Source: Thermoguttaceae bacterium
GTDB taxonomy: Bacteria; Planctomycetota; Planctomycetia; Pirellulales; Thermoguttaceae
Length of the DNA: 64,000 bases
Reading direction: 5' to 3'
NCBI GenBank assembly: GCA_963674835.2
Contig: CAXXKC010000003.1
Coordinates: forward strand, 1,736,842 to 1,800,841
Positions 16,312 to 30,584 of the stretch are shown piece after piece. The notes below the pieces were generated by a model that was not told where the DNA came from, made no database searches, and worked only from the letters and a program-made list of their open reading frames with translations. Position 1 is the first letter of the stretch. Each line of letters starts with the position of its first letter. A program made the position numbers and the translations under genes.

Positions 16312-16312
16312 G

Positions 16313-16765: not shown

Positions 16766-18823
16766 TCATTCTCCCATTCGCGGCAGCACCACGGTGAACG
16801 TCGAGCCGGTTGGTCCGAGGGCCGGATCGGCCTGCGATTCCACGCGGATATCGCCGGAGTGCATTTTGACGATGCCGTAGCTGACGGCGAGCCCCAGTCC
16901 CGTGCCTTTGCCGATCTGCTTGGTCGTGAAGAAGGGGTCGAAGATCTTCTTGATGTTCTCCGGCGGGATGCCGACGCCCGTATCGCTGACCGACACGCGC
17001 ACGCGCGAGTCGTCGCCATCGGTGCGAATGGTCAGCTCGCCACCGTTTTCCATGGCCGCGACGGCGTTGCTCACCAGGTTGGTTAGGACCTGGACGATCT
17101 GGTCTCGATCGACTTCGGCGATGGGATCGTCGGTGGCGTGTTCGACGCGGAGGGTGATGGATTCGGGCACAGTGAGCGCCCGCATGGTGCGCTGGACGAC
17201 CTGGCGAATATCGACGGGCGTGCGGCAGACCTTGTTCTGGCGGGCGAAGTGCAACAGGCCGGCGACGATCTTCTTGCAGCGATCGGCCTGTTCGGCGATC
17301 ATCGAGAGGTCATCGCGGAGCTTGGAATCGTTGTCGCATTCCTCCAGGAGGAGATGGGCGTACATCAGGACGACACCCAGCGGGTTGTTCACTTCGTGGG
17401 CGATGCCCGCGGCGAGTTGGCCCATGCCGGCGAGTTTTTCCGACTGGAGGAGTGCTTCCTGGGCGGCGGCGAGTTGTTTGTGGGATAGCTTGAGGTCGGT
17501 GAGCGCGACTCGGAGCTGGTCGATGGTGTTGGGCAGGCACATTTCGCTCTCGGCCAACTTCTTGTGGATGGCCACGGCGTGTTCGACGCAGGTATCGTAG
17601 CCGCAGGCGCCGCAGTTGAGTTCGTCGGCGAGCGAGAACTTGCCCATCTGATGCATGATGGCTGTTAGTTCGCTGCGGTTCGGCGCGGCGATGCGTTGAT
17701 CGTCGGCATGATAGGTGCGGCACAAATCGAGATCGGCAAGGCGGTCCATGGAATCACGCCACACGTCCTTGTCGAGGTCCTCCATGCGATGGCAGACGTA
17801 GGTGCGGACGTGGCGGCGTCGGTTGAACAACGGTAAATCGCCTTCGATGCCGGGCCCCATGATGCAACCATCGCAGCAGAGGGCTTCGAGGAGCCGGCAA
17901 CTGAGGTCGCCTTCGGCAAACTCCTTGACCGCCTCGAGCATGTGGCGCCGGCCCTGCGAGGCGATGATTTCGCCGGTGAGGAGGTCTTCGTGGATGTCGG
18001 CCGCCTGAAGGATTCCGCGGCTTACGGGGAACAGGCCCCCGATGCCGCCATGGGGCGGATCGAAGTCGCCGGCCTGGACCGATTCGGGGGTGATGCCCGC
18101 GTCGGTGAACATTCGGCGGAGTTCGGGGAACATGAGCACAGCGTCGACCTGACCGGCCATTTCCGCGCTCTGAGCCTCGACCTTCTTGGCGATGCAGGGA
18201 CCGATGAAGACGACTTTCAGGTCATCGCCATAGATGCGTCGAATGGCGCGAGTCATGGCGACCATCGGCGAGACAATCGGCGCGAGACGTTCGACCATGT
18301 CGGGATAGTACCGCTCGATGTAGCAAACGACCGCGGGGCAGGTGGTGGAGATGTAACGGCGCTGCTGGTCGCGGGTCAGCAGGTTGCGGTACTCACGGGC
18401 CACGAGATCGGCTCCGAAAGCGACCTCGACGACGAGCTGGAAACCTAGCGCGCGAATCATGCCGACCAATTGCGTGAAGGCCATTTCGGTGAATTCGGCG
18501 GGAAAGCTGGGCGCCACGCACGCGGCCACGCGGTTGCCGGATTGGAGCAGCGCTTGGACGTCATCAATACTGCTGCGAAGGACTTTGGCGTGCTGTGAAC
18601 ATACGCGGGTGCAGTTGCCACAAGCGATGCAGCGCTCGCCGACGACCTGGGCCTGGCCCTCGTTAATGCGGATCGCCTTGACGGGGCATTCGCGCACGCA
18701 CGTGTAGCACATGCGGCAGCGTTCTTTGACGGTGGTGATGAAGGCCGAACTCACGCGGATGCCTTTCTTTTCGTACCGTAGTGACCTGCGCCTCGGCTCG
18801 TTGACCTTTGCAGAGTCCCACAA
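16766..18823 (-). CDS. HydS-type (putative sensory) [FeFe]-hydrogenase-like domain fused to a histidine kinase
   Basis: Ferredoxin motifs CRMCYTCVRECP and CIACGNCTRVC. H-cluster-domain blocks STTCPAVV (L1-like, first Cys position is Thr), GPCIAKKVE (L2) and CCDGCIMGPG (L3-like). An exact Cx2Cx4Cx16C (CGACGYDTCVEHAVAIHKKLAESEMC). H-box IAHEVNNPL. ATPase blocks NLVSNAV, DTGVGI and GTGLGL. The start is uncertain: TTG 18823 or GTG 18754. Confidence 0.8.
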   Translation of the reverse strand: MWDSAKVNEPRRRSLRYEKKGIRVSSAFITTVKERCRMCYTCVRECPVKAIRINEGQAQVVGERCIACGNCTRVCSQHAKVLRSSIDDVQALLQSGNRVAACVAPSFPAEFTEMAFTQLVGMIRALGFQLVVEVAFGADLVAREYRNLLTRDQQRRYISTTCPAVVCYIERYYPDMVERLAPIVSPMVAMTRAIRRIYGDDLKVVFIGPCIAKKVEAQSAEMAGQVDAVLMFPELRRMFTDAGITPESVQAGDFDPPHGGIGGLFPVSRGILQAADIHEDLLTGEIIASQGRRHMLEAVKEFAEGDLSCRLLEALCCDGCIMGPGIEGDLPLFNRRRHVRTYVCHRMEDLDKDVWRDSMDRLADLDLCRTYHADDQRIAAPNRSELTAIMHQMGKFSLADELNCGACGYDTCVEHAVAIHKKLAESEMCLPNTIDQLRVALTDLKLSHKQLAAAQEALLQSEKLAGMGQLAAGIAHEVNNPLGVVLMYAHLLLEECDNDSKLRDDLSMIAEQADRCKKIVAGLLHFARQNKVCRTPVDIRQVVQRTMRALTVPESITLRVEHATDDPIAEVDRDQIVQVLTNLVSNAVAAMENGGELTIRTDGDDSRVRVSVSDTGVGIPPENIKKIFDPFFTTKQIGKGTGLGLAVSYGIVKMHSGDIRVESQADPALGPTGSTFTVVLPRMGE

Positions 18824-18924
18824 GGGGACACTCTATTGTACTATCTTGTGCCGATTGGCATTACTGTCTTTCGGCGACCGGCTACCTCCCGCTTCGGCGT
18901 AGGTGATCGGCGTTGCGTTCTCGG

Positions 18925-20646
18925 TCAGGTAACCACCCCGCGTTCGGTATAGTGGGTGTGGAGGAGATGGTGGCTCGTTTCCCCCAGTGGTTTGCCGAGG
19001 AATTCGGCATACAGTCGTCGGATCGATTCGTTGTGATGCGAGGTGCGAACCGGCTCGTTGGCGTCGATGGTGTAGAGGCTTTGCATTCGTGCCCGAACGG
19101 CGTCGAGATTGGCACCGATGGGCTGTCCACCGCCGTTGATGCACCCGCCGGGACAGGTCATGACTTCGATGAAATGGAGGTCGTCTCGGCCGGCACGTAC
19201 CTGATCGAGCAGGCGGGCAGCGTTGCCGAGACCGCTGACGACGGCGACGCCGAGCGTGAGATCGCCGATCGGCACGTGGGCCTCTTTGACGCCGTCGAGG
19301 CCGCGGACCGCCTGGACTTCGAGATCGCCCAACTCGCTACCGGTCACGAGGTAATAGGCCGTGCGGATGGCGGCCTCCATGACGCCGCCGCTGGCGCCGA
19401 AGAGTTTGCCGGCGGTGGTACGCTGGCCGAAGGGCGTGTCGGCCGTATCGGGCGGGAGATCGCGGAGATTGAGCCCAGCCATGCGAATGAGCGAGGCCAG
19501 TTCGCGCGTGGTGAGGACGGCGTCGACGTCGGCCACGCCGCCGCGTCCCATTTCCGGGCGCCCGGCTTCGAATTTCTTCGCGGTGCAGGGCATGATGCTG
19601 ACGCTGTAGATACGGGCGGGATCCAATCCCTCGCGTTGGGCAAAGTAGGTCTTGATGATGGCCCCCATCATCTGCTGGGGGCTCTTGCACGTAGAGAGGT
19701 TGCCCATGAAGTCGGGATACTGCGTTTCAACGAACTTGATCCAGCCGGGCGAGCAGCTGGTGAGCATGGGCAGCCGGCCGCCGCTGGTCAGCCGATGGAC
19801 CAGTTCGGAGCCCTCCTCCATGATGGTCAGATCGGCGGTGAAGCCGGTATCGAAGACGCGGTCGAAACCGAGTCGCCGCAGCGCGGCGGTCATGACGCCG
19901 ATTACGTCGGTACCCGGCGCTATGCCGAACTCCTCGCCGAGTGTGACAGAGACGGCGGGGGCGTGCTGTGCGACGACGATCTTGTTCGGATCGTTCAAGG
20001 CATCGAGCACCTCTTTGATCTGACTCTGTTCGGACAAGGCACCGGTGGGGCAGACGGCGATGCACTGTCCGCAGTTGATGCAACTGGAAACGTTGAGGCC
20101 TTCGTCGAAGGCGGTGCCAATTTTAGTTCTGGAGCCGCGGCCGATGAAGTCGATGGCCGCCACCCGCTGGACTTCCTCGCATACGCGGACGCACTTGCCG
20201 CAGAGGATGCACTTGGCGGGATCACGCACGATGGAGGGGCTGGAGGCGTCGATATGGTGGCGAGTGCGGTCACCGGCGAATCGTCGCTGGCGGACGCCCA
20301 GCTCTTCGGCCAGATCCTGCAGGCGGCAGTTGCCGTTGCGGTTGCAGTAGAGGCAATCGTCGGGGTGATTGGCCAGCAGCAGTTCGACGATCGTTTTTCG
20401 CGACTGCACGGCCCGCGGCGAGTGGGTGCGGACCTTCATGCCTTCGGCAACGGGAAAGGCACAGCTCGGCACGAGGCCGCGCTGGCCCTCGATCTCGACG
20501 ACACAGATGCGGCAGGCGCCGGTGGGGCTGAGCCCGTCGACGTGGCACAACGTGGGGACGCGGATTCCGGCCCTTCGCAGCGCGGTAAGGAGCATCTCAC
20601 CCTTTTCGGCGGCGATCGTTTGCCCATTGACTTCGATGTTGATCAT
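18925..20646 (-). CDS. hydA: [FeFe]-hydrogenase catalytic subunit HydA (multi-cluster, NuoG-like N-terminus)
   Basis: N-terminal 2Fe-2S and His-ligated cluster motifs (CRICVVEI, HPDDCLYCNRNGNC). Two ferredoxin motifs (CILCGKCVRVC, CINCGQCIAVCP). H-cluster blocks TSCSPGW (L1 variant), MPCTAKKFE (L2) and EVMTCPGGCINGGGQP (L3). Confidence 0.9.
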   Translation of the reverse strand: MINIEVNGQTIAAEKGEMLLTALRRAGIRVPTLCHVDGLSPTGACRICVVEIEGQRGLVPSCAFPVAEGMKVRTHSPRAVQSRKTIVELLLANHPDDCLYCNRNGNCRLQDLAEELGVRQRRFAGDRTRHHIDASSPSIVRDPAKCILCGKCVRVCEEVQRVAAIDFIGRGSRTKIGTAFDEGLNVSSCINCGQCIAVCPTGALSEQSQIKEVLDALNDPNKIVVAQHAPAVSVTLGEEFGIAPGTDVIGVMTAALRRLGFDRVFDTGFTADLTIMEEGSELVHRLTSGGRLPMLTSCSPGWIKFVETQYPDFMGNLSTCKSPQQMMGAIIKTYFAQREGLDPARIYSVSIMPCTAKKFEAGRPEMGRGGVADVDAVLTTRELASLIRMAGLNLRDLPPDTADTPFGQRTTAGKLFGASGGVMEAAIRTAYYLVTGSELGDLEVQAVRGLDGVKEAHVPIGDLTLGVAVVSGLGNAARLLDQVRAGRDDLHFIEVMTCPGGCINGGGQPIGANLDAVRARMQSLYTIDANEPVRTSHHNESIRRLYAEFLGKPLGETSHHLLHTHYTERGVVT

Positions 20647-20747
20647 GAATGGCTCTCGCTCTGTCGATTATCTTGCTCTTCTGGAAAGGAAGATGCAGGG
20701 TTGGGAAGCATGGTCGCTGGAGCGTCCTCGCTTCGGGCCGGGCCGAT

Positions 20748-22691
20748 CTAGTGTTTGACAACGGCGTCGAAGCGGCAGGCATCGATGCACGAGCCGCAAC
20801 CAATACATTTCTCTACGACGATGTGGTGAGGCGACTTGGCTGCGCCGACGATGGCCTCGGCCGGGCACTTCTTGACGCAGAGCGTGCAGCCGCGACATTT
20901 CTCCGGGTCGATCGAGTAGGTGACCAGTTCGGTGCAGACGGCCGCCGGGCAGGTGCGCTCGTAGATGTGGGATTCGTACTCGTCGCGGAACCACCGCAAC
21001 GTGCTGAGGACGGGATTGGGCGCGGTCTGGCCGAGCCCGCAGAGACTGGTGTCGCGAATGGTCTCGGCCAGGCTTTGCAGATGGAGGACGCTCTTGAATC
21101 GCTCGAGGGCGTCGATGCCTCGTTCCTTCTTCCGGCCCCGCGTAATGCGCTGGAGGATTTCCAGCATTCGTCGAGTGCCTTCGCGACAGGGGATGCACTT
21201 TCCGCAGCTTTCGCGTTGAATGAAGTCCATGAAGAACTTGGCCACGTCGACCATGCAGGTGTCTTCGTCCATGACGACGAGCCCGCCCGAGCCCATGATG
21301 GCGCCGACGGTCTTCAAGGATTCGTAGTCGACGTCGATATCGAGATGCTGGGCGGGGATGCAGCCGCCAGACGGGCCGCCGATTTGCACGGCCTTGTAGG
21401 TCTTGCCATTGGGGATGCCGCCGCCGATGTCGAAGACGATCTTGCGGATGGGCGTGCCCATGGCCACTTCGACGAGACCGGTGTGGGAGACCTTGCCCGA
21501 GAGGGCGAAGACCTTGGTGCCCTTGCTGGTCTTGGTTCCGAGGGCGCTGAAGCCGTCGGCCCCGATGGACATGACAGTGGGCAAGTTGGCCAGGGTTTCG
21601 ACGTTGTTGATGATTGTCGGCTTGCCGAAGAGTCCACTGACGGCGGGAAAGGGCGGGCGGGGGCGCGGCATGCCGCGACGACCTTCAATGCTGTGGATCA
21701 GGGCGGTTTCCTCGCCGCACACGAACGCGCCCGCGCCCATTTTGATGATGACGTGCAGACTGAAGTCGGTACCGAGAATGCTGTCGCCGAGAAGGTGGTT
21801 GGCCTCGGCCTGAGCAATGGCGGCCTTCAGTCGCTTGATGGCCAGCGGGTACTCGGCACGGATGTAGACGTAGGCCTTCGTGGCACCGATACCGTAGGCG
21901 GCAATGGCCATGCCTTCGACCAGCCGATGCGGATCGCTCTCGATCACGGCGCGATCCATGAAGGCGCCGGGATCGCCTTCGTCGGCGTTGCAGATGAGGT
22001 ATTTCTGATCGCCGGGCGACTGGCGGGCGAACTTCCATTTCCTACCGGTGGGAAAGCCGCCGCCACCCCGGCCGCGAAGGCCGCTTCGTTCGACAATGTC
22101 GCAGACGGCATCGGGCGTCGTTCCGTGGAGCGTGGCGACCAGGGCCTTGTAACCGCCGCGAGCAATGTACTCCTCGATTTGCGAGGGATCGATGAGACCG
22201 CAGTTGGCCAGCACCCAACGGGTTTGCGGAGCGAAGAAGGGATGTTCGTCCAAGAAGGGCACATCGGGCCAGGCAGGGACCGTATCGCTGCGATGCTGGC
22301 CGAGAACCAGGTCGTCGGGGGCCGCACTGGAGAGCGCTTCGTCGAGCAGGCGAGCAACCTTATCGGCAGTGATCTGCTTGTAGCACACGCGGGCGTGGCC
22401 GGGGAGTTGCACTTCGACGATCGGCTCGAGCGAACAGATGCCGATGCAGCCGACCATTACGACGTCGGCCTTGATTTCGTGGGTATCGAGGTACTGGTGA
22501 ATGGCGGCGAGGGTGTCGCGGGCGCCGGCGCCGAGTCCGCAGGTGCCGGCGCCGACGAAGATAGCGGGGCGAGGGACGTCGTCGCGGCGCAAATCGGCGA
22601 GCCGGCGGTGGCGTTGCTGGCGGGTGACCTCGTCGGCGGCCTCGCCGTTGACGGTCCAGGAGAGTAGCTCAGGCAGCTTCATCGCTGTCAT
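20748..22691 (-). CDS. hydB: NuoF-like flavoprotein subunit HydB of bifurcating-type hydrogenase
   Basis: GRGGGGFPTGRKWKF (FMN/NADH site) and ESCGKCIPCREG (N3-type cluster). C-terminal CRGCTLCVKKCP and CIGCGSCIDAC. Thioredoxin-like N-terminal domain. Confidence 0.9.
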   Translation of the reverse strand: MTAMKLPELLSWTVNGEAADEVTRQQRHRRLADLRRDDVPRPAIFVGAGTCGLGAGARDTLAAIHQYLDTHEIKADVVMVGCIGICSLEPIVEVQLPGHARVCYKQITADKVARLLDEALSSAAPDDLVLGQHRSDTVPAWPDVPFLDEHPFFAPQTRWVLANCGLIDPSQIEEYIARGGYKALVATLHGTTPDAVCDIVERSGLRGRGGGGFPTGRKWKFARQSPGDQKYLICNADEGDPGAFMDRAVIESDPHRLVEGMAIAAYGIGATKAYVYIRAEYPLAIKRLKAAIAQAEANHLLGDSILGTDFSLHVIIKMGAGAFVCGEETALIHSIEGRRGMPRPRPPFPAVSGLFGKPTIINNVETLANLPTVMSIGADGFSALGTKTSKGTKVFALSGKVSHTGLVEVAMGTPIRKIVFDIGGGIPNGKTYKAVQIGGPSGGCIPAQHLDIDVDYESLKTVGAIMGSGGLVVMDEDTCMVDVAKFFMDFIQRESCGKCIPCREGTRRMLEILQRITRGRKKERGIDALERFKSVLHLQSLAETIRDTSLCGLGQTAPNPVLSTLRWFRDEYESHIYERTCPAAVCTELVTYSIDPEKCRGCTLCVKKCPAEAIVGAAKSPHHIVVEKCIGCGSCIDACRFDAVVKH

Positions 22692-23160
22692 GACGCGAGT
22701 CCTTCTTGCGGTAGGAGTCGATGATTTTGGCCACGGATTTCGTCGTCACGCCGGCGTGGAAGTTGCCGTTGATGGAAATGACCGGCGCCAATCCGCAGGC
22801 GCCGATGCAGGCCACGACCTCCAGGCTGAACTGGCCGTCGCGGGTGGTTTGGCCCGGCTCGATCTTCAATTCCCGCTTGATCGCCTCCAGGATGGCAGCC
22901 GAGCCTTTGACGTGGCAGGCGGTGCCGCGGCAGACCTGGATGTGGTTGCGGCCCTGGGGCTGGAAGCGGAACTGGTTGTAGAAGGTGGCGACGCCGTAGA
23001 TTTTGCTGGCGGGAAGATTCAGGCGTTCTCCGATCCGCACGACGGCGTCTCGGGACAAGTAGCCGAACTCCTGCTGTACGTCCTGCAAGATGGGGATCAG
23101 GGCATCACGCGAAGCGTTGGGATATCGGTCAAGCAGTGTACCTAGTTCGTTTGTTGCCAC
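22669..23160 (-). CDS. hydC: NuoE-like 2Fe-2S subunit HydC
   Basis: ORF 22669..23604, trimmed to GTG 23160, which is preceded by GAGGAG. The upstream extension is Pro/Arg-rich noise. Motifs: VCRGTACHVKG...ACIGACGLAP. Overlaps the hydB start by 23 nt. Confidence 0.85.
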   Translation of the reverse strand: MATNELGTLLDRYPNASRDALIPILQDVQQEFGYLSRDAVVRIGERLNLPASKIYGVATFYNQFRFQPQGRNHIQVCRGTACHVKGSAAILEAIKRELKIEPGQTTRDGQFSLEVVACIGACGLAPVISINGNFHAGVTTKSVAKIIDSYRKKDSRHDSDEAA

Positions 23161-23214: not shown

Positions 23215-23229
23215 GCAAACGACGTGCCG
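23215..23229 (-). promoter_or_regulatory. Sigma-54 (-24/-12) promoter for hydCBA
   Basis: The minus strand reads C-GGCACG-TCGT-TTGC-C, matching TGGCACG-N4-TTGC at every position except the first T. The -12 GC lies about 55 nt upstream of the hydC GTG. Confidence 0.65.
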
Positions 23230-23418
23230 TTTGCAGAAGTCAGTTTCGGGCCCAGAAAGTCGCGGCCGTTGCCGACAGGTTGCGAGGAAAAGGAAAGGGT
23301 GACGGGTGGGCAGCTCCTCCGCGTTTCGGCGATGGAGAACGCAGCGGGCAGGCGGAACGGACGGCGTTTTCCCGTCGATCCGGGCCCCGGCTCGGCTTGC
23401 AGGCCGGCGGTGATTGTG

Positions 23419-23444
23419 TGTATGATTTTGGTATACAGTGTATG
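23419..23444 (-). promoter_or_regulatory. Putative enhancer (UAS) site, copy 1
   Basis: The minus strand reads CATACA-c-TGTATA-ccaaaat-CATACA. This is the same 26-nt architecture as 25195..25220. It lies about 190 nt upstream of the hydC sigma-54 promoter and just upstream of the DHp/ntrC-like operon. Confidence 0.5.
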
Positions 23445-23464
23445 GAACGCGAAGGGTTCTGGAG

Positions 23465-23740
23465 ATGCCTACAACTGACGAGAATTCACCGCTGGGTTCG
23501 GAATCGCAGCGGTGCAACGCAGGTAGCGAGCGGCTGCTGGAGATCGGGCGATTCGCCGGCGACGTGGCCCACAAGATCAACAACCACCTGACCACAATTC
23601 TCACGTTCTCTCATCTGATGCGAGAGAAGTCGAACCTGGACGCGCAGGATCGCGAGGATCTGGATCTGATCATCCGGGAGGCGACGAACGCGGCGGCCCT
23701 TGCCCGCAATCTGCAAGACCGGGGTGCCGTGAATGAGTAG
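23465..23740 (+). CDS. Stand-alone histidine-kinase DHp (H-box) domain protein, no sensor or ATPase domain
   Basis: SERLLEIGRFAGDVAHKINNHLTTILTFSHLMREK..REDLDLIIREA aligns along both helices with the DHp of the HydS-kinase ([46 protein letters not shown]). About 91 aa from ATG 23465 (AAGGG 8 nt upstream); GTG 23438 is the alternative start. Its stop overlaps the next gene's ATG (ATGAGTAG). Confidence 0.6.
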   Translation: MPTTDENSPLGSESQRCNAGSERLLEIGRFAGDVAHKINNHLTTILTFSHLMREKSNLDAQDREDLDLIIREATNAAALARNLQDRGAVNE

Positions 23741-25160
23741 AGATGCGGCCAAACGGGAGATCGCGGAAGCGGCTCTGCGGATTCTCGTGATCGACGACGA
23801 TCCGGGAATTGGGCTGAGCTGCCAGAGGACCCTGGAGTCGGAAGGGCACGAGGTTCGGCATTGCCTAGTGCCGGAGGTCGGTCTGCAGGCCGCGTTGACG
23901 GGCGATTTTGACATTATTCTGCTGGACTTGCAGATGCCCGGGCTGAACGGGCTGGAGATTCTGCGCGAGCTGAAGTCGGCGGCTGTGCCTTCGGAAGTGA
24001 TCATGATCACGGGCCATGCGACCGTTGAATCGGCGGTCGAAGCGATGAAGCAAGGTGCGCAGGACTTTGTGAGCAAGCCGTTCTCGCCGGATCAGTTGAA
24101 GATGGCCGTCCGCCGGGCCGCGGAACACTCGCGGCTGATCAGCGAGAATGTGGCGCTGCGGCAGGAGCTGGAGATTCACCAGGGTTTTGAGGGGATCATC
24201 GGCGAAAGCCGGCCGATGGAGCGGGTTTTCGCCCTGGCGCGGCGCGTGGCGCCGACTGAGGGAACGGTGCTGCTGATCGGCGAAAGCGGCACGGGAAAAG
24301 AGGTGTTCGTGCGGGCGATTCACCGGCTGAGCCGGCGCAACGACCACCCGCTTCTGGCGTGCGACTGCAGCGCACTGGCGCCGACGCTGCTGGAGAGCGA
24401 GCTGTTCGGCCATATGAAAGGCTCGTTCAGCGGAGCCATCGTGACGAAGCAGGGGCTGTTCGAGGCGGCGCACGGCGGCACGCTTTTTCTGGATGAAATT
24501 GGCAATTTGAGCATGGAAATCCAGGGGAAACTGCTGCGGGTGCTCGAAACGAAGCGGGTAAAAAAGGTGGGCGACACGGCGGAGCGCGAGGTGGATATCC
24601 GCCTGATCTCGGCCACGAACCGCGACTTGATCGAGATGGTTCGCGAGGGGGATTTTCGAGAGGACCTGTACTATCGACTGAACGTCGTTCCCGTCTATTT
24701 GCCGCCGCTTCGGGAGCGGTCGGGCGATATCCCCCTTCTGGCGATATCCTTCCTCGACCGGTTCTGTAAGAAGAACCACGCGGCCGTGAAGGGTTTTTCG
24801 CCCGATGCGATGAGCTTGATGGAAGGGTACGCGTGGCCGGGCAACGTCCGCGAACTGCGGAACATCGTGGAGCGGCTGGCCATTCTGTGCGATCACGAGC
24901 GGATCGAGCCGCGCCATCTTCCGGCCGAGATTCGCCAAGCCCAGGTGGGCATCACGCCGGGGACGCCGCTGCCGCGCACGTGGGAGGAGTTCAAGCGGTT
25001 GAAGCAACAGATCCGCGAGTCGACCGTACAGCAATTGGAGCGGCGGTTTCTGGTCGCCTCGTTGGAGCGTTGCGAGGGCAACGTGAGCCGCACCGCCGAA
25101 GAGATCGGCATCCAGCGGACCAATCTGCATGCCCTAATGCGGAAACACGGCCTGACCTAG
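23733..25160 (+). CDS. NtrC-family sigma-54-dependent response regulator (REC-AAA+-Fis HTH)
   Basis: REC (ILVIDDDPG..IILLDLQMPGLNG..FVSKPF). AAA+ Walker A GESGTGKE. ESELFGHMKGSFSGA is a GAFTGA-loop variant. GNVRELRN is present. C-terminal HTH SRTAEEIGIQRTNLHALMRKHGL. Confidence 0.9.
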   Translation: MSRDAAKREIAEAALRILVIDDDPGIGLSCQRTLESEGHEVRHCLVPEVGLQAALTGDFDIILLDLQMPGLNGLEILRELKSAAVPSEVIMITGHATVESAVEAMKQGAQDFVSKPFSPDQLKMAVRRAAEHSRLISENVALRQELEIHQGFEGIIGESRPMERVFALARRVAPTEGTVLLIGESGTGKEVFVRAIHRLSRRNDHPLLACDCSALAPTLLESELFGHMKGSFSGAIVTKQGLFEAAHGGTLFLDEIGNLSMEIQGKLLRVLETKRVKKVGDTAEREVDIRLISATNRDLIEMVREGDFREDLYYRLNVVPVYLPPLRERSGDIPLLAISFLDRFCKKNHAAVKGFSPDAMSLMEGYAWPGNVRELRNIVERLAILCDHERIEPRHLPAEIRQAQVGITPGTPLPRTWEEFKRLKQQIRESTVQQLERRFLVASLERCEGNVSRTAEEIGIQRTNLHALMRKHGLT

Positions 25161-25194
25161 TGCGTGTCACCATCGGTCGGCGTTCTACAGGCCG

Positions 25195-25220
25195 CATACA
25201 GTGTATGTTCGCTGCATACA
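25195..25220 (+). promoter_or_regulatory. Putative enhancer (UAS) site, copy 2
   Basis: CATACA-g-TGTATG-ttcgctg-CATACA, with a perfect 13-bp palindrome CATACAgTGTATG. It lies 119 nt upstream of the GG of the 25338 sigma-54 promoter. Confidence 0.5.
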
Positions 25221-25337
25221 CGAGAACGGGCTCGATGTGCGTGGGGCAGCGATGTTGCGCGGGGTGGAAGGCGTGTTTGGGCCGTCGTAGGGCGGGATTG
25301 TTGGGGGCGAGCGGGCGTTGCTGAAGACATCCTTGTT

Positions 25338-25352
25338 TGGCACGCGTGTTGC
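25338..25352 (+). promoter_or_regulatory. Sigma-54 (-24/-12) promoter for the REC-GcvH-like/hdr/flx operon
   Basis: TGGCACG-CGTG-TTGC is a full match to TGGCACG-N4-TTGC. It lies 84 nt upstream of ATG 25436. Confidence 0.75.
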
Positions 25353-25435: not shown

Positions 25436-27004
25436 ATGCCAAACGAACCAGCACTGTTGGTCGTGGATGACGAAGATGCAATCTGCGAGGGCTGCCGACG
25501 CATCTTCTCCCGCCAGGGCTTCGACGTGCAGAAATGCAGCGACGCGAACCAGGGCTTGAGTCTGGCAGCCCGTGGCGATTACGCCGCGATCTTGTTGGAT
25601 GTGAAGATGCCGGAGATGGATGGCCTCCATTTCCTCGAAGCGCTGCGCAAGGACCAGCCGACGGTGCCGGTGATCTTGATGACCGGTTACCCGAGCATCC
25701 CGAACGCGGCCTCGGCCATTCGATTGGGCGCATCGGACTATGTGACGAAGCCATTTACGCCGGACGAGATCACGCAGGCCGTTCACCGCCTGTTGCACAC
25801 GAGCCAGAACCCGGCGGCGACAGCGACGATCAGCGAGCCGCCCGCGCCGGATGCTCCGCTGCATTTCTTCCGCGACGCCTGGTATCAGACGAACCGCGAA
25901 GGCATCGCGAGAGTGGGCGCGGTCGTGGTACGGCGGGGCGCGGCGAAGATTCAGTCGCTGCGTTTGCCGAAGATCGGCGAAGTCGTGTATCAGGGGCTGC
26001 CGCTGGCGGTGGTAACGATCGCCGGTCAGCCGCCGCGTACGATCTCTGCACCGCTTTCGGGCGTTGTCGTGGCCGTGAACGACGCGTTGGCCAGCGACGC
26101 GGCGCCGGTGCTCGATGAGCCGTGTGGAAAGGGCTGGCTCGCCTGCATCTGTCCGACACGACTCGAGGAGGAATCGACGCGATGCCCGTTGCGGCGCGTC
26201 CTCCTGTTGAGCCAAGACGACGAGGCAGCCCGGCAGCAGACGGAACGTCTGTGTGCGCTGGGGTGCGAGGTGCGCCGGCTCAGCGATCCGAAGGAATTGA
26301 CCGAAGTTCAACGCGGCTTCGACTCGAACCTGCTGCTGGTCGACGCCAAGACTCTGGGAACGGAAGGGCCGGGCATGGTCGGCGCGCTGAACGCGGCCGA
26401 TCCCGCGTTGAAGATCGTCGTACTGGCGTCGGCCGACTCCGTATTGGAGCCCGCCTATCGCACGCGGCGGATCTTCTACTATGCCGTCGAGCCGTTTGCC
26501 GACAACGAGATCGCGGACATCATCGCCGGCGCTTGCCAGGCGCCGCCGAGTACGCAGCCGGGTACGCGCCGAGAGCAGGCGCAGACGCTGGGCTGCATCT
26601 TCATCACCAACCGGAATCGGACACGCGTGCGGCTGATCGCGGCACCGGGGCTGCTGCGACGCGAGGACGGCTTGGGCCTGCTGCTGCGGCAGAGGCTGAT
26701 GGAGCGACGTTTTCCGCTGGAGAGCTCACCGAGCGAAACGCCGATCACGCCCATGCACTTGCTCCGCGAAGCGTCTCACTGCGACCGGGTGATCGTGCTG
26801 TTGGCACAGGATCACGGTCGGCTGCCGGGGAGCCTGTCGCGCGACACGAAGGCGGAGTACATCGCGATGGTGGGTGCGGGCGCCGACAAGGTGACGACAT
26901 TCCTGCTGCAGCCGAGCGACGTGCCGGACGAGCCGATGGCGTTGGATCCACAGATTCTCGAGGCGCTGGCGGATCAGTTGTCGCACGAGATGGCATCCTG
27001 TTAG
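25436..27004 (+). CDS. Response-regulator receiver fused to a GcvH-like domain (no lipoyl lysine), a pseudo-receiver and an unknown C-terminal region
   Basis: ORF 25337..27004, trimmed to ATG 25436 (GAGGGA upstream). REC: LLVVDDEDA..AILLDVKMPEMDG..VILMTGY..YVTKPF. GcvH-like: SAPLSGVVVAVNDALASDAAPVLDEPCGKGW, compare E. coli GcvH [30 protein letters not shown]. The ESVK lysine position reads TIAGQ here. The second REC-like block (LLLVDAK..KIVVLASAD..YYAVEPF) lacks the conserved Lys. Confidence 0.7.
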   Translation: MPNEPALLVVDDEDAICEGCRRIFSRQGFDVQKCSDANQGLSLAARGDYAAILLDVKMPEMDGLHFLEALRKDQPTVPVILMTGYPSIPNAASAIRLGASDYVTKPFTPDEITQAVHRLLHTSQNPAATATISEPPAPDAPLHFFRDAWYQTNREGIARVGAVVVRRGAAKIQSLRLPKIGEVVYQGLPLAVVTIAGQPPRTISAPLSGVVVAVNDALASDAAPVLDEPCGKGWLACICPTRLEEESTRCPLRRVLLLSQDDEAARQQTERLCALGCEVRRLSDPKELTEVQRGFDSNLLLVDAKTLGTEGPGMVGALNAADPALKIVVLASADSVLEPAYRTRRIFYYAVEPFADNEIADIIAGACQAPPSTQPGTRREQAQTLGCIFITNRNRTRVRLIAAPGLLRREDGLGLLLRQRLMERRFPLESSPSETPITPMHLLREASHCDRVIVLLAQDHGRLPGSLSRDTKAEYIAMVGAGADKVTTFLLQPSDVPDEPMALDPQILEALADQLSHEMASC

Positions 27005-27023
27005 CAGACTGTCGAGGTCGCCC

Positions 27024-27575
27024 GTGTCCACTACCACCGCTAGCATGCCCAAGGGCTTCGAACGCCTGAAGGTGACCGACTGTTACCAATGCGGCAAGTG
27101 TTCGGCCGGCTGTCCGATGTCGGAACACATGGACTTGCTGCCGAACCAGTTGGTTCGCCTGGTTCAGCTTGGCCGCCTGGAGCGAGCGATGATGTGTGAG
27201 GCGATCTGGAAATGCGTGTCGTGCATGACCTGCACGACGCGGTGCCCGAAGTCGGTCGATTGCGCCGGTGTGATGGACGCCCTGCGACAGGCGGCGGTTC
27301 AGCAGGGGAAGGTTCCGGAGGAACGGCGGCGAACCGTCTGCTTCCAACAGGCCTTTCTGGACAACATCCGCCGCAACGGCCGGCTTTGCGAGCTGGAGCT
27401 GATCGGTGTGTTCAAGACGAGGGCGTTCTTCAGGGACCACAGCGTTTCGCTGTTACTGAAGGACGCGATGTTGGCACCGCAGTTGATCCTGCGCCGGAAG
27501 TTCCACATCCGTGGTGAGCGAGCGAAAGACCGCGGAGTCGTGCAACGGATCTTTGAGAGGTGCGAGCGACGATGA
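27024..27575 (+). CDS. hdrC: Heterodisulfide reductase subunit C
   Basis: CYQCGKCSAGCP and CVSCMTCTTRCP motifs, about 183 aa. Start is GTG 27024, with ATG 27045 as the alternative. Confidence 0.85.
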   Translation: MSTTTASMPKGFERLKVTDCYQCGKCSAGCPMSEHMDLLPNQLVRLVQLGRLERAMMCEAIWKCVSCMTCTTRCPKSVDCAGVMDALRQAAVQQGKVPEERRRTVCFQQAFLDNIRRNGRLCELELIGVFKTRAFFRDHSVSLLLKDAMLAPQLILRRKFHIRGERAKDRGVVQRIFERCERR

Positions 27576-27648
27576 AACGGCGACCGCCGGTCGCGTTGTG
27601 CGCGGCGCGAGTGCCGGCCGTGGCATTGCAACGAGGAGACCTTCCACC

Positions 27649-28491
27649 GTGGATTTCGGCTACTACCCTGGTTGCGCGTTGCATGGATCGTCGAACGACT
27701 ATGGACAGTCGGTACGTGCCTGTCTGGCAGCACTGGGCGTCGGGCTGCACGAGCTGGACGACTGGATCTGCTGCGGGGCGACGGCGGCCCACTCGCTGAA
27801 CCATACCTTGGCCGTGGCATTGCCGGCGAGAAACCTGGCCATCGCCGAGCGTGACGGGCTGACGGACCTGCTGGCGCCGTGCCCGATGTGTTCGATGGAG
27901 CTGCTGAAGGCGCAGGGCGTGCTGGCGGCTTCGGAGGATGCCCGGCGGCAGATGTCGGAGATCGTCGAACTGCCAGTTCGCGGCAGCACGCGGGTGCTCA
28001 ACCTGATTCAGGTGTTGCAGCAGGTGGGCGTGGAGGCGATCCAGGAGAAGGCGACCCGCCGGCTCGAAGAGTTCCGCGCGGCATGCTACTACGGATGCCT
28101 TCTGACGCGTCCGCCGGAAACGCTGCGGTTCGACGACTGCGAGCAGCCCGATTCGATGGAGACCATTCTGCGGGCCCTGGGGGCAGAGCCAGTGGAATGG
28201 AACTACAAGACAGAGTGCTGCGGGGCCGGCATGACGATCGCCGATGAGGAGGTCGTGCTGGAGCTGTCGCACAAGATCCTGAGCAACGCACGTCAGCACG
28301 ACGCCAATTGCATGGTGGTGGCGTGCCCGATGTGTCACGCGAACCTCGACATGAAGCAGGCCGACATCGAGCGACGCTACGGATGCCGCCACGAGATGCC
28401 GGTGTATTATCTGTCGGACCTGGTTGGGCTAGCGGTGGGATTGGACGAGCGCTCGCTAGGAATCCATCGGCATTTTGTCGTGAAACGGTGA
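27649..28491 (+). CDS. hdrB: Heterodisulfide reductase subunit B (two CCG domains)
   Basis: ORF 27511..28491, trimmed to GTG 27649 (AGGAGA 9 nt upstream), giving MDFGYYPGCALHG. CCG motifs WICCGATAAH and TECCGAGMT. Confidence 0.85.
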   Translation: MDFGYYPGCALHGSSNDYGQSVRACLAALGVGLHELDDWICCGATAAHSLNHTLAVALPARNLAIAERDGLTDLLAPCPMCSMELLKAQGVLAASEDARRQMSEIVELPVRGSTRVLNLIQVLQQVGVEAIQEKATRRLEEFRAACYYGCLLTRPPETLRFDDCEQPDSMETILRALGAEPVEWNYKTECCGAGMTIADEEVVLELSHKILSNARQHDANCMVVACPMCHANLDMKQADIERRYGCRHEMPVYYLSDLVGLAVGLDERSLGIHRHFVVKR

Positions 28492-28498
28492 TCAGAGC

Positions 28499-30499
28499 AT
28501 GGCACGAATCGGCGTATTCATCTGTTGGTGTGGCGAGAACATCGCCCGCAACGTCGACGTGGAACGGGCGGCGGTGGCAGCGGGAGAGCTGCCGGGCGTC
28601 GTCAGCGCGACCGCGTACAAGTACATGTGCTCTGACCCGGGGCAGTCGCTGATGCGTCGCGCGATCGCGTCGGAGCGATTGACGGGCGTGGTGGTGGCGT
28701 CGTGCTCGCCGCACATGCATCTGCGCACGTTCCGAAAGGCGGCGGCCTTGGAGGGGCTGAATCCTTACCTGGTCGAGATGGCCAACATCCGCGAGCATTG
28801 TTCCTGGGTGCACCACGATCGGCAGGAGGCGACCGAGAAGGCCATCGAACTGATTCGGATGGCAGTGGCCAAGGTGCGCTGCAACCATGCTCTGGAGCCG
28901 ATCGCCATACCCGTGACGCCGAGAGTGCTGGTAATCGGCGGAGGTGTGGCGGGGATTCAGGCGGCGTTGGACGTGGCAGACGCCGGGCACCAGGTGGTGC
29001 TGGTCGAGCGCGAACCGTCGATCGGCGGGAAGATGGCGGGGCTGTCGGAGACGTTTCCGACGCTGGACTGCTCGCAGTGCATTCTGACGCCGCGGATGGT
29101 CGACGTCGGCCAGCATCCGAACATCACGCTGCACACCTATAGCGAAGTGGAATCGGTCGAGGGCTATGTCGGCAATTTTCGGGTGACGATTCGAAAGAAG
29201 GCCCGTTACGTCGACATCGACAAGTGCACGGGCTGCGGACAGTGCATGACGTCGTGCCCCTCGAAGAAGACCCCGAGCGAGTTCGATTACCGGATGGGGA
29301 CGCGGACGGCGATCTACATCCCCTTCCCGCAAGCCGTACCCGCCCGTCCGGTCATCGACCGTGACGCGTGTCTGCACTTTCTCAAGGGCAAGTGCGGCAT
29401 CTGCGTCAAGAAGTGTCAGGCCGGGGCCATCAACTATGACGACCAGGATCGGCTCGTGACCGAGGAGGTCGGGGCGGTCATTGTCGCGACCGGCTTCCAA
29501 CTCTACCAGATCGGCAAGACGCAAGACGGCAACAAGACCGCCGGATACGGCGAGTACGGATACGGCCAGCACGCCGACGTGATCGACTCGCTGCAGTTCG
29601 AGCGGCTGGTTTCGGCGTCGGGTCCGACCGGCGGCGAGATCCGGCGTCCTTCCGACGGCACTGTGCCCAAAACGGTCGTCTTCATCAGTTGCGTCGGTTC
29701 TCGCGACAATGCCAAGGGGCTCTCGTACTGCTCGAAGATCTGCTGCATGTACACGGCCAAACACACGATGCTCTACAAGCACAAGGTGCATGACGGCACA
29801 GCGCACGTGTTCTATATGGACATCCGCGCGGGCGGCAAGAACTACGACGAGTTTGTGCGGCGGGCGATCGAGCAGGACGGGGCGCAGTATCATCGGGGCC
29901 GGGTTTCGAAGATCACCGCGGAGCGAGGAAAGCTGATTGTCCGCGGAGTCGACACGCTAATGAATGAGTCGCTGACGGTCGAGGCCGACCTGGTCGTGCT
30001 GGCTGCGGCCATGCGGCCGGCCCACGAGGTCGAGCGTTTGGCCCAGAAGCTGAGCGTGGGCTATGACGAGAACGGTTTTCTGTCGGAATCGCACCCGAAG
30101 CTGCGGCCGGTGGAGACGAGTTCGGCCGGGGTGTTCGTATGCGGGGCCTGCCAAGGGCCGAAAGACATTCCCGAATCGGTGGCACAGGCCAGCGCGGCCG
30201 CCGGCAAGGTGTTGGTGATGTTCGGCCACCGGCAACTCACTCGCGAGCCGGAAATCGCGAAGGTGAACGAAACGAACTGCGCGGCGTGTTTTGCGTGTGC
30301 GCGGGCGTGCCCGTACAACGCAATCGAGCGAGCGGAGATCGTGGATCGTAAGGGCAACCCGCTGAAGCGTACGGCCCGGGTCAACCAGGGGTTGTGCATG
30401 GGTTGCGGGACGTGCGTGGCGATGTGCCCTTCGAAGAGCATCGACCTGGACGGCTTTAGCGAGGAACAGGTATACGCGATGCTGGAGAGTCTGGAATGA
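28499..30499 (+). CDS. hdrA: Heterodisulfide reductase subunit A (FAD, multiple 4Fe-4S)
   Basis: MvhD-like N-domain (IGVFICWCGENIA..VVVASCSPHMH). FAD fold VLVIGGGVAGIQAALD. Ferredoxin motifs CTGCGQCMTSCP, CGICVKKCQ, CAACFACARACP and CMGCGTCVAMCP. Confidence 0.9.
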   Translation: MARIGVFICWCGENIARNVDVERAAVAAGELPGVVSATAYKYMCSDPGQSLMRRAIASERLTGVVVASCSPHMHLRTFRKAAALEGLNPYLVEMANIREHCSWVHHDRQEATEKAIELIRMAVAKVRCNHALEPIAIPVTPRVLVIGGGVAGIQAALDVADAGHQVVLVEREPSIGGKMAGLSETFPTLDCSQCILTPRMVDVGQHPNITLHTYSEVESVEGYVGNFRVTIRKKARYVDIDKCTGCGQCMTSCPSKKTPSEFDYRMGTRTAIYIPFPQAVPARPVIDRDACLHFLKGKCGICVKKCQAGAINYDDQDRLVTEEVGAVIVATGFQLYQIGKTQDGNKTAGYGEYGYGQHADVIDSLQFERLVSASGPTGGEIRRPSDGTVPKTVVFISCVGSRDNAKGLSYCSKICCMYTAKHTMLYKHKVHDGTAHVFYMDIRAGGKNYDEFVRRAIEQDGAQYHRGRVSKITAERGKLIVRGVDTLMNESLTVEADLVVLAAAMRPAHEVERLAQKLSVGYDENGFLSESHPKLRPVETSSAGVFVCGACQGPKDIPESVAQASAAAGKVLVMFGHRQLTREPEIAKVNETNCAACFACARACPYNAIERAEIVDRKGNPLKRTARVNQGLCMGCGTCVAMCPSKSIDLDGFSEEQVYAMLESLE

Positions 30500-30584
30500 A
30501 CGGTGGCGACGGAGAGCCTGGTCGAGGCAGGCCCCTGATGGGTCGTAGCTCGGGAAAAGGACGAGGTGACGAGGAGAGACCGCG

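What the first reader, a model, noticed from the sequence alone, without database searches (positions are those of the whole stretch)
23215..25352. Two divergent sigma-54 promoters sharing one 26-nt upstream site architecture
Seen in the sequence:
- The minus strand at 23229..23215 reads CGGCACG-TCGT-TTGC, upstream of hydC.
- The plus strand at 25338..25352 reads TGGCACG-CGTG-TTGC, upstream of the REC-GcvH-like/hdr/flx genes.
- Read in the sense of each promoter, both have the same element upstream. At 23444..23419 it is CATACA-c-TGTATA-ccaaaat-CATACA. At 25195..25220 it is CATACA-g-TGTATG-ttcgctg-CATACA.
- The distances to the promoters are about 190 nt and 119 nt.

Established knowledge: bacterial enhancer-binding proteins bind dyad sites 80-200 nt upstream of -24/-12 promoters.

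Inference: the NtrC-type protein encoded between the two promoters co-activates the hydrogenase and Flx-Hdr operons. Copy 1 also overlaps its own operon's upstream region, which could allow autoregulation.
Basis: partly seen in the sequence, partly recalled or inferred. Interest (0 to 1): 0.62.

Follow-up and report, generated by a model that had tools for sequence, protein, structure and literature searches.

The report
Shared enhancer site at two sigma-54 promoters
Two sigma-54 promoters in an anaerobic planctomycete, one for a hydrogenase operon and one for a Flx-Hdr redox operon, carry the same conserved activator site, so one neighbouring NtrC-type regulator probably switches both on; the design is textbook, but the motif and its link to a hydrogen-sensor kinase are undescribed.

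Summary
The -24/-12 boxes CGGCACGTCGTTTGC (23229..23215, minus) and TGGCACGCGTGTTGC (25338..25352, plus) lie 44-73 nt upstream of hydC and of the REC-GcvH/hdr/flx leader gene. Each is preceded by CATACA-N-TGTATR-N7-CATACA in the same orientation.

The 26-nt motif occurs exactly twice in the 7.65-Mb genome. A matrix built only from relatives' sites ranks these two copies first, at 36 and 35 bits against 23 for the next hit. rpoN is present and full length.

In 12 related genera of the same family, the motif always sits 77-290 nt upstream of a TGGCAC-N5-TTGC box, always in this orientation. The downstream gene is hydC, REC-GcvH, a hydrogenase-like sensor kinase or a flxB-like gene. The motif co-occurs with orthologs of the local activator (11 of 12 genomes).

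Autoregulation is only possible. The site lies next to the regulator operon only where hydCBA is divergent from it.

New context:
- The hydrogenase operon also encodes an [FeFe]-hydrogenase-like histidine kinase, suggesting an H2-sensing feedback loop.
- The regulator's ancestral Cache kinase has decayed to a 91-aa stub.

No transcript or binding data exist.

The parts
23419..23444 (-). Upstream activator site, copy 1 (hyd side): CATACA-c-TGTATA-ccaaaat-CATACA. It lies 189 nt upstream of the hydC -24/-12 box and 20 nt upstream of the stub ORF's ATG on the other strand.
   Evidence: It scores 34.9 bits with a matrix built from relatives only. Orthologous sites stand before hydC in G033, G031, G009, G029 and G021.
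23215..23229 (-). Sigma-54 type -24/-12 box of the hyd operon, CGGCACGTCGTTTGC. The predicted start is near 23204, giving a 5' UTR of about 44 nt.
   Evidence: TGGCAC-N5-TTGC is conserved at the same place in 5 other genera. The transcription start is inferred, not measured.
15175..23160 (-). Target operon 1:
- hydC, NuoE-like (23160..22669)
- hydB, NuoF-like (22691..20748)
- hydA, [FeFe] hydrogenase (20646..18925)
- [FeFe]-hydrogenase-like sensor histidine kinase (18823..16766; start uncertain)
- lone receiver (16744..16313)
- receiver-HisKA-HATPase kinase (16353..15175)
   Evidence: Pfam and ORFs. No terminator-like site was found on the minus strand between hydA and the kinase. The order UAS, box, hydC, hydB, hydA, kinase is the same in G021 and G033. 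Co-transcription is inferred.
23465..23740 (+). A 91-aa HisKA-only ORF. It is the remnant of the Cache-HAMP-HisKA-HATPase kinase that precedes the regulator in relatives. Its stop overlaps the regulator's start.
   Evidence: Pfam HisKA only. Relatives carry 641-648 aa kinases, or 340 aa in G009. Both junctions are seen in contigs of independent runs.
23733..25160 (+). NtrC-type enhancer-binding response regulator: REC, AAA+ sigma-54 interaction domain with a GSFSGA loop, and a Fis-type HTH. It is the proposed binder of both sites.
   Evidence: Pfam, NCBIfam with no equivalog reached, PDB relatives NtrC1, NtrX and ZraR. The loop and recognition helix are conserved in orthologs.
25195..25220 (+). 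Upstream activator site, copy 2 (flx side): CATACA-g-TGTATG-ttcgctg-CATACA. It lies 35 nt after the regulator's stop and 117 nt upstream of the box.
   Evidence: It scores 36.1 bits, the top hit in the genome. Orthologous sites are listed.
25338..25352 (+). Sigma-54 type -24/-12 box of the hdr-flx operon, TGGCACGCGTGTTGC. The predicted start is near 25364, giving a 5' UTR of about 72 nt.
   Evidence: It is conserved before REC-GcvH in 11 related loci. The transcription start is inferred.
25436..33740 (+). Target operon 2:
- REC-GcvH-like leader (25436..27004)
- hdrC (27024..27575)
- hdrB (about 27511..28491)
- hdrA (28499..30499)
- mvhD/flxD (30585..31016)
- flxC (31043..31891)
- flxB (31888..32907)
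- flxA (32904..33740)
   Evidence: Pfam and translations. Synteny of regulator, REC-GcvH and hdrCBA holds in relatives.

Best explanation
These are two sigma-54-dependent promoters that share one enhancer design.

Proposed mechanism:
- The NtrC-type response regulator encoded between them (23733..25160) binds the site CATACA-N-TGTATR-N7-CATACA as dimers. This site is best read as one full TGTATG-N7-CATACA dyad plus the proximal half of a second dyad 20 bp upstream.
- When phosphorylated, the regulator assembles into an AAA+ ring.
- By DNA looping over about 120-190 bp, it opens the sigma-54 holoenzyme complex at both promoters.
- This co-induces a NuoEF-type (probably electron-bifurcating) [FeFe] hydrogenase operon and the REC-GcvH/HdrCBA/FlxDCBA operon.

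The first operon also encodes an [FeFe]-hydrogenase-like histidine kinase, a lone receiver and a receiver-kinase. The circuit therefore probably senses H2 or redox state and feeds back on its own sensor.

Shown here:
- the sequence elements
- their uniqueness in the genome
- their conservation and fixed orientation across genera
- their co-occurrence with the regulator
- the presence of rpoN

Inferred:
- binding by this protein
- the transcription starts
- the signal
- the phosphodonor
For: - **Elements and genes.** The elements are present and correctly placed, and the genes are identified.
- **Uniqueness.** The motif has two copies in 7.65 Mb. A matrix trained on 18 sites from other genomes scores the two window sites 36.1 and 34.9 bits; the next hits score 23.4 and 19.2 over 15.3 million positions.
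- **Sigma factor.** rpoN is full length.
- **Orthologous loci.** In loci of 8 genera, the intergenic region between the regulator and REC-GcvH keeps the motif and a TGGCAC-N5-TTGC box. In 4 genera with divergent hydCBA, the hyd side keeps both too.
- **Whole-genome pattern search.** The motif (up to 2 mismatches) is in 13 of 61 genomes. All 13 are in one family, with 0 of 24 in other families of the order. The reversed control gives 2 hits.
- **Copies away from the regulator.** Every such copy also has a sigma-54 box 77-290 nt downstream in the same orientation. The gene behind it is hydC-hydB, REC-GcvH, the hydrogenase-like kinase or a flxB/A-like pair.
- **Unbiased word count.** Over 12 intergenic regions, CATACA/TGTATG, ACAsTGT and TGGCAC are the most shared 6-mers: 10-11 of 12 regions against 1.4-2.4 expected.
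- **Co-occurrence with regulator orthologs.** The counts are 11/4/1/44, Fisher p = 4e-8, uncorrected for phylogeny.
- **Regulator features.** REC, Sigma54_activat and HTH_8 are present, and the recognition helix is conserved in orthologs.
- **Precedent.** The D. vulgaris sigma-54 response regulator DVU2394 (GSFTGA loop) controls adh-flx-hdr (PMC3333781, PMC4641369).
Against: - There is no transcript, 5'-end or binding data. The runs that hold the locus are kept only as assembled contigs of unknown library type, so no 5' ends can be read.
- The -24/-12 pattern is not enriched genome-wide.
- The activator's sigma-54 contact loop is GSFSGA, not the canonical GAFTGA.
- A 54%-identical paralog with a nearly identical recognition helix and related half-sites exists at C1:318006-319364, so cross-talk cannot be excluded.
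- No IHF consensus site lies between the sites and the boxes.
- Three half-sites is an odd number for dimers.
- Four genomes have a regulator ortholog but no motif at 2 mismatches or fewer.
Confidence: 0.78

Rival explanations
1. The sites are real enhancers, but they are bound mainly or also by the paralogous NtrC-type regulator at C1:318006-319364 rather than by the local one. The two operons would then be under cross-regulation.
For: The paralog is 54% identical. Its recognition helix is almost the same (QRPNFHALLR against QRTNLHALMR), and its own target site uses the same TGTATG/CATAC half-sites.
Against: The paralog group's sites have N6 rather than N7 spacing and lack the CATACA-N-TGTATG core. 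The N7-type motif tracks orthologs of the local regulator, in most cases physically next to them.
Confidence: 0.1
2. The motif is the operator of a different, non-EBP transcription factor, for example a redox repressor. It merely accompanies sigma-54 promoters whose activator binds another, unrecognised sequence.
For: No binding data exist. The 13-bp perfect palindrome CATACA-S-TGTATG would suit any dimeric helix-turn-helix protein.
Against: The site is 77-290 nt upstream of the box, not over it. That position suits an enhancer and suits a repressor of a sigma-54 promoter poorly. No other shared word emerges from the 12 intergenic regions that could serve as the activator's site. The motif co-occurs with the regulator and does not resemble the Rex, Crp/Fnr or NifA consensus sites as I know them.
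Confidence: 0.07
3. Copy 1 acts mainly as an autoregulatory operator of the stub-regulator operon, for example by occluding its promoter, and only secondarily or not at all as the hydC enhancer.
For: Copy 1 ends 20 nt before the stub ORF's ATG. In all four loci with divergent hydCBA, the site lies 27-62 nt before the kinase start. On the kinase strand, H4 plus 2 nt reads TATGAT or TATAGT, a -10-like hexamer, at all six hyd-side sites but not at flx-side sites. From my own knowledge, NtrC sites at glnAp2 also repress glnAp1.
Against: Relatives whose kinase-regulator operon is not next to hydCBA have no site before it. The TATGAT is also present in G021:C2, where no kinase gene is divergent. The sigma-70 scan finds no promoter there. 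The orientation and distance to the hydC box match the flx-side design.
Confidence: 0.3
4. The similarity is a chance coincidence of AT-rich hexamers and has no function.
For: None beyond the lack of experiments.
Against: 0 of 100 shuffles give a match. The genome holds two copies, both here. The motif is conserved in 12 other genera with fixed orientation.
Confidence: 0.01

Closest known systems
NtrB/NtrC at glnAp2 of enteric bacteria, the textbook two-component sigma-54 enhancer (from my own knowledge)
   Same: A REC-AAA+-Fis-HTH response regulator. Tandem dyad sites about 100-150 bp upstream of a GG-N10-GC promoter. The sites lie near the regulator's own operon, so enhancer and autoregulatory roles can coincide.
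   Different: The half-site word is different: CATACA/TGTATG with N7 and N1 spacing, against TGCACC-N5-GGTGCA. The targets are redox and hydrogen enzymes, not nitrogen assimilation. The loop is GSFSGA. The phylum is different (Planctomycetota-like; the best named relative is a Planctomycetaceae MAG).
DVU2394 of Desulfovibrio vulgaris Hildenborough, a sigma-54 response regulator of the adh-flxABCD-hdrABC operon DVU2405-2397 (PMC3333781; PMC4641369)
   Same: A two-component sigma-54 activator with a non-canonical GSFTGA-type loop that controls a Flx-Hdr operon.
   Different: Its validated site is reported as a direct repeat, found only in D. vulgaris strains. Here the site is a three- or four-half-site inverted-repeat array. 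Here a hydrogenase operon is co-regulated and no adh gene is present. Orthology was not tested.
HoxBC-HoxJ-HoxA of Cupriavidus necator and HupUV-HupT-HupR of Rhodobacter capsulatus, the H2-sensing cascades (from my own knowledge)
   Same: A hydrogenase-like H2 sensor signals through a histidine kinase to an NtrC-family regulator. That regulator controls hydrogenase structural genes.
   Different: There the sensor is a separate [NiFe] regulatory hydrogenase and the targets are [NiFe] uptake hydrogenases. Here an [FeFe]-hydrogenase-like domain is fused to the kinase and encoded inside the target operon. The targets are an [FeFe] NuoEF-type hydrogenase and Flx-Hdr. The phosphodonor of the regulator is unknown.
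Group C (C1/C3) putative sensory [FeFe] hydrogenases next to group A3 bifurcating hydrogenases (PMC11406978)
   Same: A sensor-type [FeFe] hydrogenase gene with a kinase domain lies next to hydABC-type genes. A regulatory role is assumed from gene neighbourhood.
   Different: That paper defines no response regulator, promoter or cis-element. Here a candidate output path (activator, site, promoters) is delineated.

Membership tests
Sigma-54 (-24/-12) promoter | GG and GC doublets exactly 10 nt apart within TGGCAC-N5-TTGC, upstream of and on the strand of the gene | tested here: met
   The boxes are 44-73 nt before the start codons of hydC and REC-GcvH.
Sigma-54 (-24/-12) promoter | The genome encodes sigma-54 (rpoN) | tested here: met
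   PF04552 scores 215 bits at C2:939659-940132. The 514-aa ORF has region I and the RpoN box ARRTVTKYR.
Sigma-54 (-24/-12) promoter | The box is conserved at orthologous positions while the surrounding intergenic sequence diverges | tested here: met
   about 20 promoters in 13 genomes.
Sigma-54 (-24/-12) promoter | The transcript starts about 11-12 nt downstream of the -12 GC, and transcription depends on rpoN | not testable with these tools
   Only contig-level runs of unknown type were found.
Bacterial enhancer-binding protein, NtrC-type response regulator | REC, AAA+ sigma-54 interaction domain and Fis-type HTH | tested here: met
   Pfam Response_reg 93 bits, Sigma54_activat 224 bits, HTH_8 32 bits. 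The closest solved structures are NtrC1, NtrX and ZraR.
Bacterial enhancer-binding protein, NtrC-type response regulator | GAFTGA loop that contacts sigma-54 | tested here: inconclusive
   The loop reads GSFSGA in the window protein and in 19 of the 20 aligned relatives; one paralog-group member (L121) reads GAFSGA. The Phe is kept. Natural variants such as GSFTGA and GAFSGA are listed for functional Desulfovibrio activators.
Bacterial enhancer-binding protein, NtrC-type response regulator | Membership in a named equivalog (AtoC, NtrC, ZraR, NtrX and others) | tested here: not met
   The best NCBIfam hit is AtoC at 411 bits, against a cut-off of 714. No model is reached.
Enhancer (UAS) of a sigma-54 promoter | Repeated dyad sites roughly 80-200 nt upstream of the -24 element | tested here: met
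   The distance from the first base of the 26-nt motif to the box is 143 and 215 nt here and 77-290 nt in relatives. The orientation is always the same.
Enhancer (UAS) of a sigma-54 promoter | The cognate activator binds the site and is needed for open-complex formation | not testable with these tools
   Only the association can be shown: co-occurrence of 11/4/1/44 and physical adjacency.
DVU2394-type Flx-Hdr regulators | A sigma-54 two-component regulator whose target is a flx-hdr operon | tested here: met
   (functional analogy).
DVU2394-type Flx-Hdr regulators | Orthology to DVU2394 and the same binding motif | not tested
   The DVU2394 sequence and motif letters were not retrieved. The paper describes a direct repeat, which differs from the inverted array here.
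HoxJ/HoxA-type H2-sensing cascade | A separate [NiFe] regulatory hydrogenase complexed with the kinase | tested here: not met
   The sensor candidate is an Fe_hyd_lg_C domain fused to HisKA and HATPase_c.

The most novel reading that the evidence does not exclude
The two promoters are the output of an H2-sensing [FeFe]-hydrogenase-like histidine kinase that is itself encoded in the hydrogenase operon. Signal would pass through a lone receiver, a receiver-kinase and possibly the DHp stub to the NtrC-type activator. This would form a positive feedback loop that couples H2 level to joint expression of an electron-bifurcating hydrogenase and Flx-Hdr.

This would be the first defined signalling output (regulator, DNA site, promoters, regulon) for kinase-linked sensory [FeFe] hydrogenases. 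In this lineage the hydrogenase sensor would have replaced the ancestral Cache kinase.
Probability: 0.4. Interest if true: 0.65.

Novelty: new member of a known kind. Interest (0 to 1): 0.45.

Why it matters
Kinase-linked 'sensory' [FeFe] hydrogenases are common in anaerobe genomes, but what they control is unknown (PMC11406978). This locus offers a compact, testable circuit:
- one activator
- one 26-nt site with a clear consensus
- two promoters
- two operons that together handle H2, NADH, ferredoxin and a heterodisulfide-type acceptor

It also gives the first cis-regulatory word for a clade of planctomycete NtrC-type regulators. A natural series shows the ancestral Cache kinase shrinking from 641 to 340 to 91 aa where the hydrogenase-like kinase is present.

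The promoter and enhancer design itself is textbook, and similar hydrogenase/hdr sigma-54 regulons with other motifs have been noted in other phyla in this scan.

Tried and rejected
- **RNA evidence for transcription starts.** Both run searches returned only Logan contigs of unknown library type, and one contig spans the whole locus, so no 5' ends can be read.
- **Genome-wide enrichment of the -24/-12 box.** It is not enriched (29 against 24 for the control). The box alone was therefore not used as evidence.
- **IHF consensus WATCAANNNNTTR.** It has no match anywhere in the window.
- **Sigma-70 promoter over copy 1.** The scan finds none. My hand-read TTGCAG-N18-TATGAT fails the -35 criterion. 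The -10-like TATGAT is conserved at hyd-side sites, but also in G021, where no divergent kinase gene exists. It was therefore dropped as evidence for autoregulation.
- **Extended repeat or duplicated segment around the two sites.** None was found.
- **Named orthology of the activator.** No NCBIfam equivalog is reached.
- **The search for related loci in genome contigs.** It returned mostly 40-47% identical paralogs from many phyla. The useful orthologs came from the genome search.
- **A canonical sigma-54 box behind the third near-site at C1:93648.** None was found by eye.
- **Strain SNPs.** There are 5 SNPs in the flx-side intergenic region and none in the motif or box, but about 0.75 would be expected there by chance, so this is not informative.
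Full report
**1. Observation**

Reading 22900-25700 confirms every letter of the finding.
- The minus strand at 23229..23215 is CGGCACGTCGTTTGC.
- The plus strand at 25338..25352 is TGGCACGCGTGTTGC.
- The minus strand at 23444..23419 is CATACA-c-TGTATA-ccaaaat-CATACA.
- The plus strand at 25195..25220 is CATACA-g-TGTATG-ttcgctg-CATACA.
- The gaps to the boxes are 189 and 117 nt.

CATACA and TGTATG are reverse complements. The element is therefore an array of three half-sites, H2-N1-H3-N7-H4.

The pattern finds only these two places in the window, even with 3 mismatches, and none in 100 shuffles. In the whole genome it has exactly two exact matches, both here. The genome has 3 contigs, 7.65 Mb and 62% G+C, and the window is C3:1736842-1800841. 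The similarity between the two regions stops at the 26 nt.

The -24/-12 box alone is weak evidence. TGGCAC-N5-TTGC occurs 29 times in the genome, against 24 for the reversed control.

**2. Genes**

Pfam and the ORF lists give the following.

Minus strand:
- hydC, NuoE-like
- hydB, NuoF-like
- hydA, [FeFe] hydrogenase
- a protein with Fe_hyd_lg_C, FeS, HisKA and HATPase_c, that is, a hydrogenase-like sensor kinase
- a lone receiver
- a receiver-HisKA-HATPase kinase

No terminator-like site lies on that strand between hydA and the kinase.

Plus strand:
- a 91-aa HisKA-only ORF
- the NtrC-type activator (REC, Sigma54_activat, HTH_8)
- REC-GcvH
- hdrC, hdrB, hdrA, mvhD/flxD, flxC, flxB, flxA

rpoN is present as a 514-aa ORF with region I and the RpoN box.

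**3. Comparative evidence**

*Orthologs.* A search of 60 related genomes finds orthologs of the activator at 65-78% identity in 15 genera of the same family. I fetched 20 loci.

*Synteny.* The order kinase, activator, REC-GcvH, hdrCBA is conserved. hydCBA is divergent upstream in G033, G031 and G009.

*Flx side.* In the intergenic region after the activator, G033, G017, G031 and G029 keep CATACA-N-TGTATG-N7-CATACA. G028, G034 and G008 carry a fourth half-site, giving TGTATG-N7-CATACA-N-TGTATG-N7-CATACA. That is two 19-bp dyads with centres 20 bp apart. Each site is followed by TGGCAC-N5-TTGC.

*Hyd side.* G033, G031 and G009 keep the three-half-site array in the hydC sense and a sigma-54 box 170-205 nt downstream.

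*Whole-genome pattern search.* Allowing 2 mismatches, the motif is in 13 of 61 genomes. All 13 are in one family, and none of the 24 genomes from other families of the order has it. The reversed control gives 2 hits.

*Copies away from the activator gene.* Each of these also stands upstream of a sigma-54 box, in the same orientation. The downstream genes are:
- hydC-hydB (G029, G021)
- REC-GcvH (G003, G005, G021)
- the hydrogenase-like kinase (G023)
- a flxB/flxA-like pair (G034)

*Unbiased word count.* Counting 6-mers over 12 intergenic regions puts CATACA/TGTATG, ACAsTGT and TGGCAC at the top.

*Matrix scan.* A matrix built from 18 sites of other genomes only, scanned over 15.3 million positions of the own genome, ranks the two window sites first at 36.1 and 34.9 bits. 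The next hits score 23.4 and 19.2.

*Co-occurrence.* Motif presence and activator orthologs co-occur with counts of 11/4/1/44, Fisher p = 4e-8, and p = 2e-5 within the family. Neither value is corrected for phylogeny.

**4. Mechanism**

The simplest reading is a classical enhancer-dependent regulon. The local NtrC-type regulator binds the array, oligomerises on phosphorylation and activates sigma-54 holoenzyme at both promoters by looping.

The four-half-site versions favour TGTATG-N7-CATACA as the dimer site. So does the paralog group, which uses TGTATG-N6-CATACG (L118, L121). Against that, the most conserved part is the 13-bp palindrome CATACA-S-TGTATG, whose centre is a C:G pair in 20 of the 21 distinct sites listed. 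The binding register therefore remains open.

The activator's sigma-54 contact loop is GSFSGA in the window protein and in 19 of the 20 aligned relatives; one paralog-group member (L121) reads GAFSGA. Comparable variants, such as GSFTGA in DVU2394 and GAFSGA in DVU2827, are listed for Desulfovibrio activators.

**5. Signal input**

In relatives, the gene before the activator is a Cache-HAMP-HisKA-HATPase kinase of 641-648 aa.
- In G009 it is 340 aa.
- In the window only a 91-aa DHp stub is left. Its H-box is altered from HEINNPL to HKINNHL.
- Its junctions stand in contigs from independent samples.

Orthologs of the hydrogenase-like kinase occur in G009, G021, G023, G029, G031, G032 and G033. 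With the exception of G032, these are the genomes that have a hyd-side or kinase-side UAS. In G021 the operon order is again UAS, box, hydC, hydB, hydA, kinase.

The kinase core of the hydrogenase-like protein is most similar (45%) to the Cache-kinase family that partners this activator family.

I infer that the hydrogenase-like kinase, directly or through the downstream receiver and receiver-kinase, feeds the activator. Because it is encoded in a target operon, it would form a positive feedback loop. This step is inference only.

**6. Autoregulation**

Copy 1 ends 20 nt before the stub's ATG. In all four loci with divergent hydCBA, the site lies 27-62 nt before the kinase start. Binding there could therefore interfere with transcription of the regulator operon.

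Several observations weaken this.
- Loci without hydCBA next door have no site before the kinase.
- The sigma-70 scan finds nothing at the site.
- The -10-like TATGAT on the opposite strand is also present in G021, where no kinase gene is divergent.

I rate autoregulation as possible, at about 0.3.

**7. Comparison with what is known**

The design equals NtrC at glnAp2 (my own knowledge).

The closest functional precedent is DVU2394 of D. vulgaris. It is a sigma-54 response regulator of the adh-flx-hdr operon, and its site was reported as a direct repeat (PMC3333781, PMC4641369).

The closest logical analogue is the HoxBC-HoxJ-HoxA and HupUV-HupT-HupR H2-sensing cascade (my own knowledge), which uses a [NiFe] sensor.

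Two papers were checked.
- A 2025 survey of sigma-54 regulons mentions Planctomycetia but reports no hydrogenase or Hdr targets for that class, and the word 'heterodisulfide' does not occur in it (PMC12316311).
- A 2024 paper notes kinase-bearing group C [FeFe] hydrogenases next to bifurcating hydrogenases, but it defines no output pathway (PMC11406978).

Earlier notes of this scan report analogous sigma-54 regulons of hydrogenase and hdr operons with other motifs in Aminicenantes. This agrees that the kind is ordinary.

**8. Verdict**

- Novelty: a new member of a known kind, with an undescribed motif and regulon.
- The wider interest lies in the probable link to a sensory [FeFe] hydrogenase kinase.
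- Confidence that these are sigma-54 promoters with a functional shared enhancer bound by the local activator is 0.78.
- Interest is 0.45.

Noticed in passing
window 23465-23740 (+); L102, L107, L117: The 91-aa HisKA-only ORF is the remnant of a Cache-HAMP-HisKA-HATPase kinase. That kinase is 641-648 aa in G033 and G031 and 340 aa (no Cache domain) in G009. The H-box is altered from HEINNPL to HKINNHL. Contigs from independent runs confirm both deletion junctions.
   Followed up: partly
window 15175-16744 (-): After the hydrogenase-like kinase, the same strand carries a lone receiver (16744..16313) and a receiver-HisKA-HATPase kinase (16353..15175). A receiver gene also follows the kinase in G021 and G023. 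This suggests a multi-step relay whose last donor to the activator is unknown.
   Followed up: partly
genome C1:93648-93673 (-), outside the window: The third-best matrix hit in the genome (23.4 bits) is CATACAGGATATAGTTGGCCCATACA. It lies about 230 nt upstream of a paralogous hdrCBA-mvhD-flxCBA operon (C1:93363..86800, 56-83% identical proteins) that lacks the REC-GcvH leader. No canonical -24/-12 box lies between. It may be a decayed or weak site.
   Followed up: partly
genome C1:316050-321000 (L119), outside the window: The same genome holds a paralogous module of Cache kinase, NtrC-type activator (54% identical) and REC-GcvH (49%). It has its own sigma-54 box, TGGCACGCCAATTGC. Its upstream site has related half-sites but N6 spacing.
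   Followed up: partly
L115 (G035) 8490-8530: The most distant ortholog (65%) has no inverted array. Instead it has a direct repeat, ATGTATAC-N12-ATGTATAC, with a 20-bp period, upstream of CGGCACACGCTTTGC and REC-GcvH.
   Followed up: no
whole genome: The genome has at least six NuoE/NuoF/[FeFe]-hydrogenase gene sets and several hdrA/mvhD sets. Only the set in this window carries the activator site. A second hydrogenase-like sensor (39%) lies at C3:1153080-1154276 next to another hydABC set.
   Followed up: no
whole genome: The canonical TGGCAC-N5-TTGC pattern is barely more frequent than its reversed control (29 against 24), although the genome encodes many NtrC-type proteins. Either the sigma-54 regulon is small or its boxes are looser than the consensus.
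   Followed up: no
L137 (G034:C283:15907) 1501-2763: In G034, a further motif plus sigma-54 box precedes a flxB-like (Fer4_22-type) gene and a flxA-like gene. The regulon content therefore varies between genera but stays within H2 and redox modules.
   Followed up: partly
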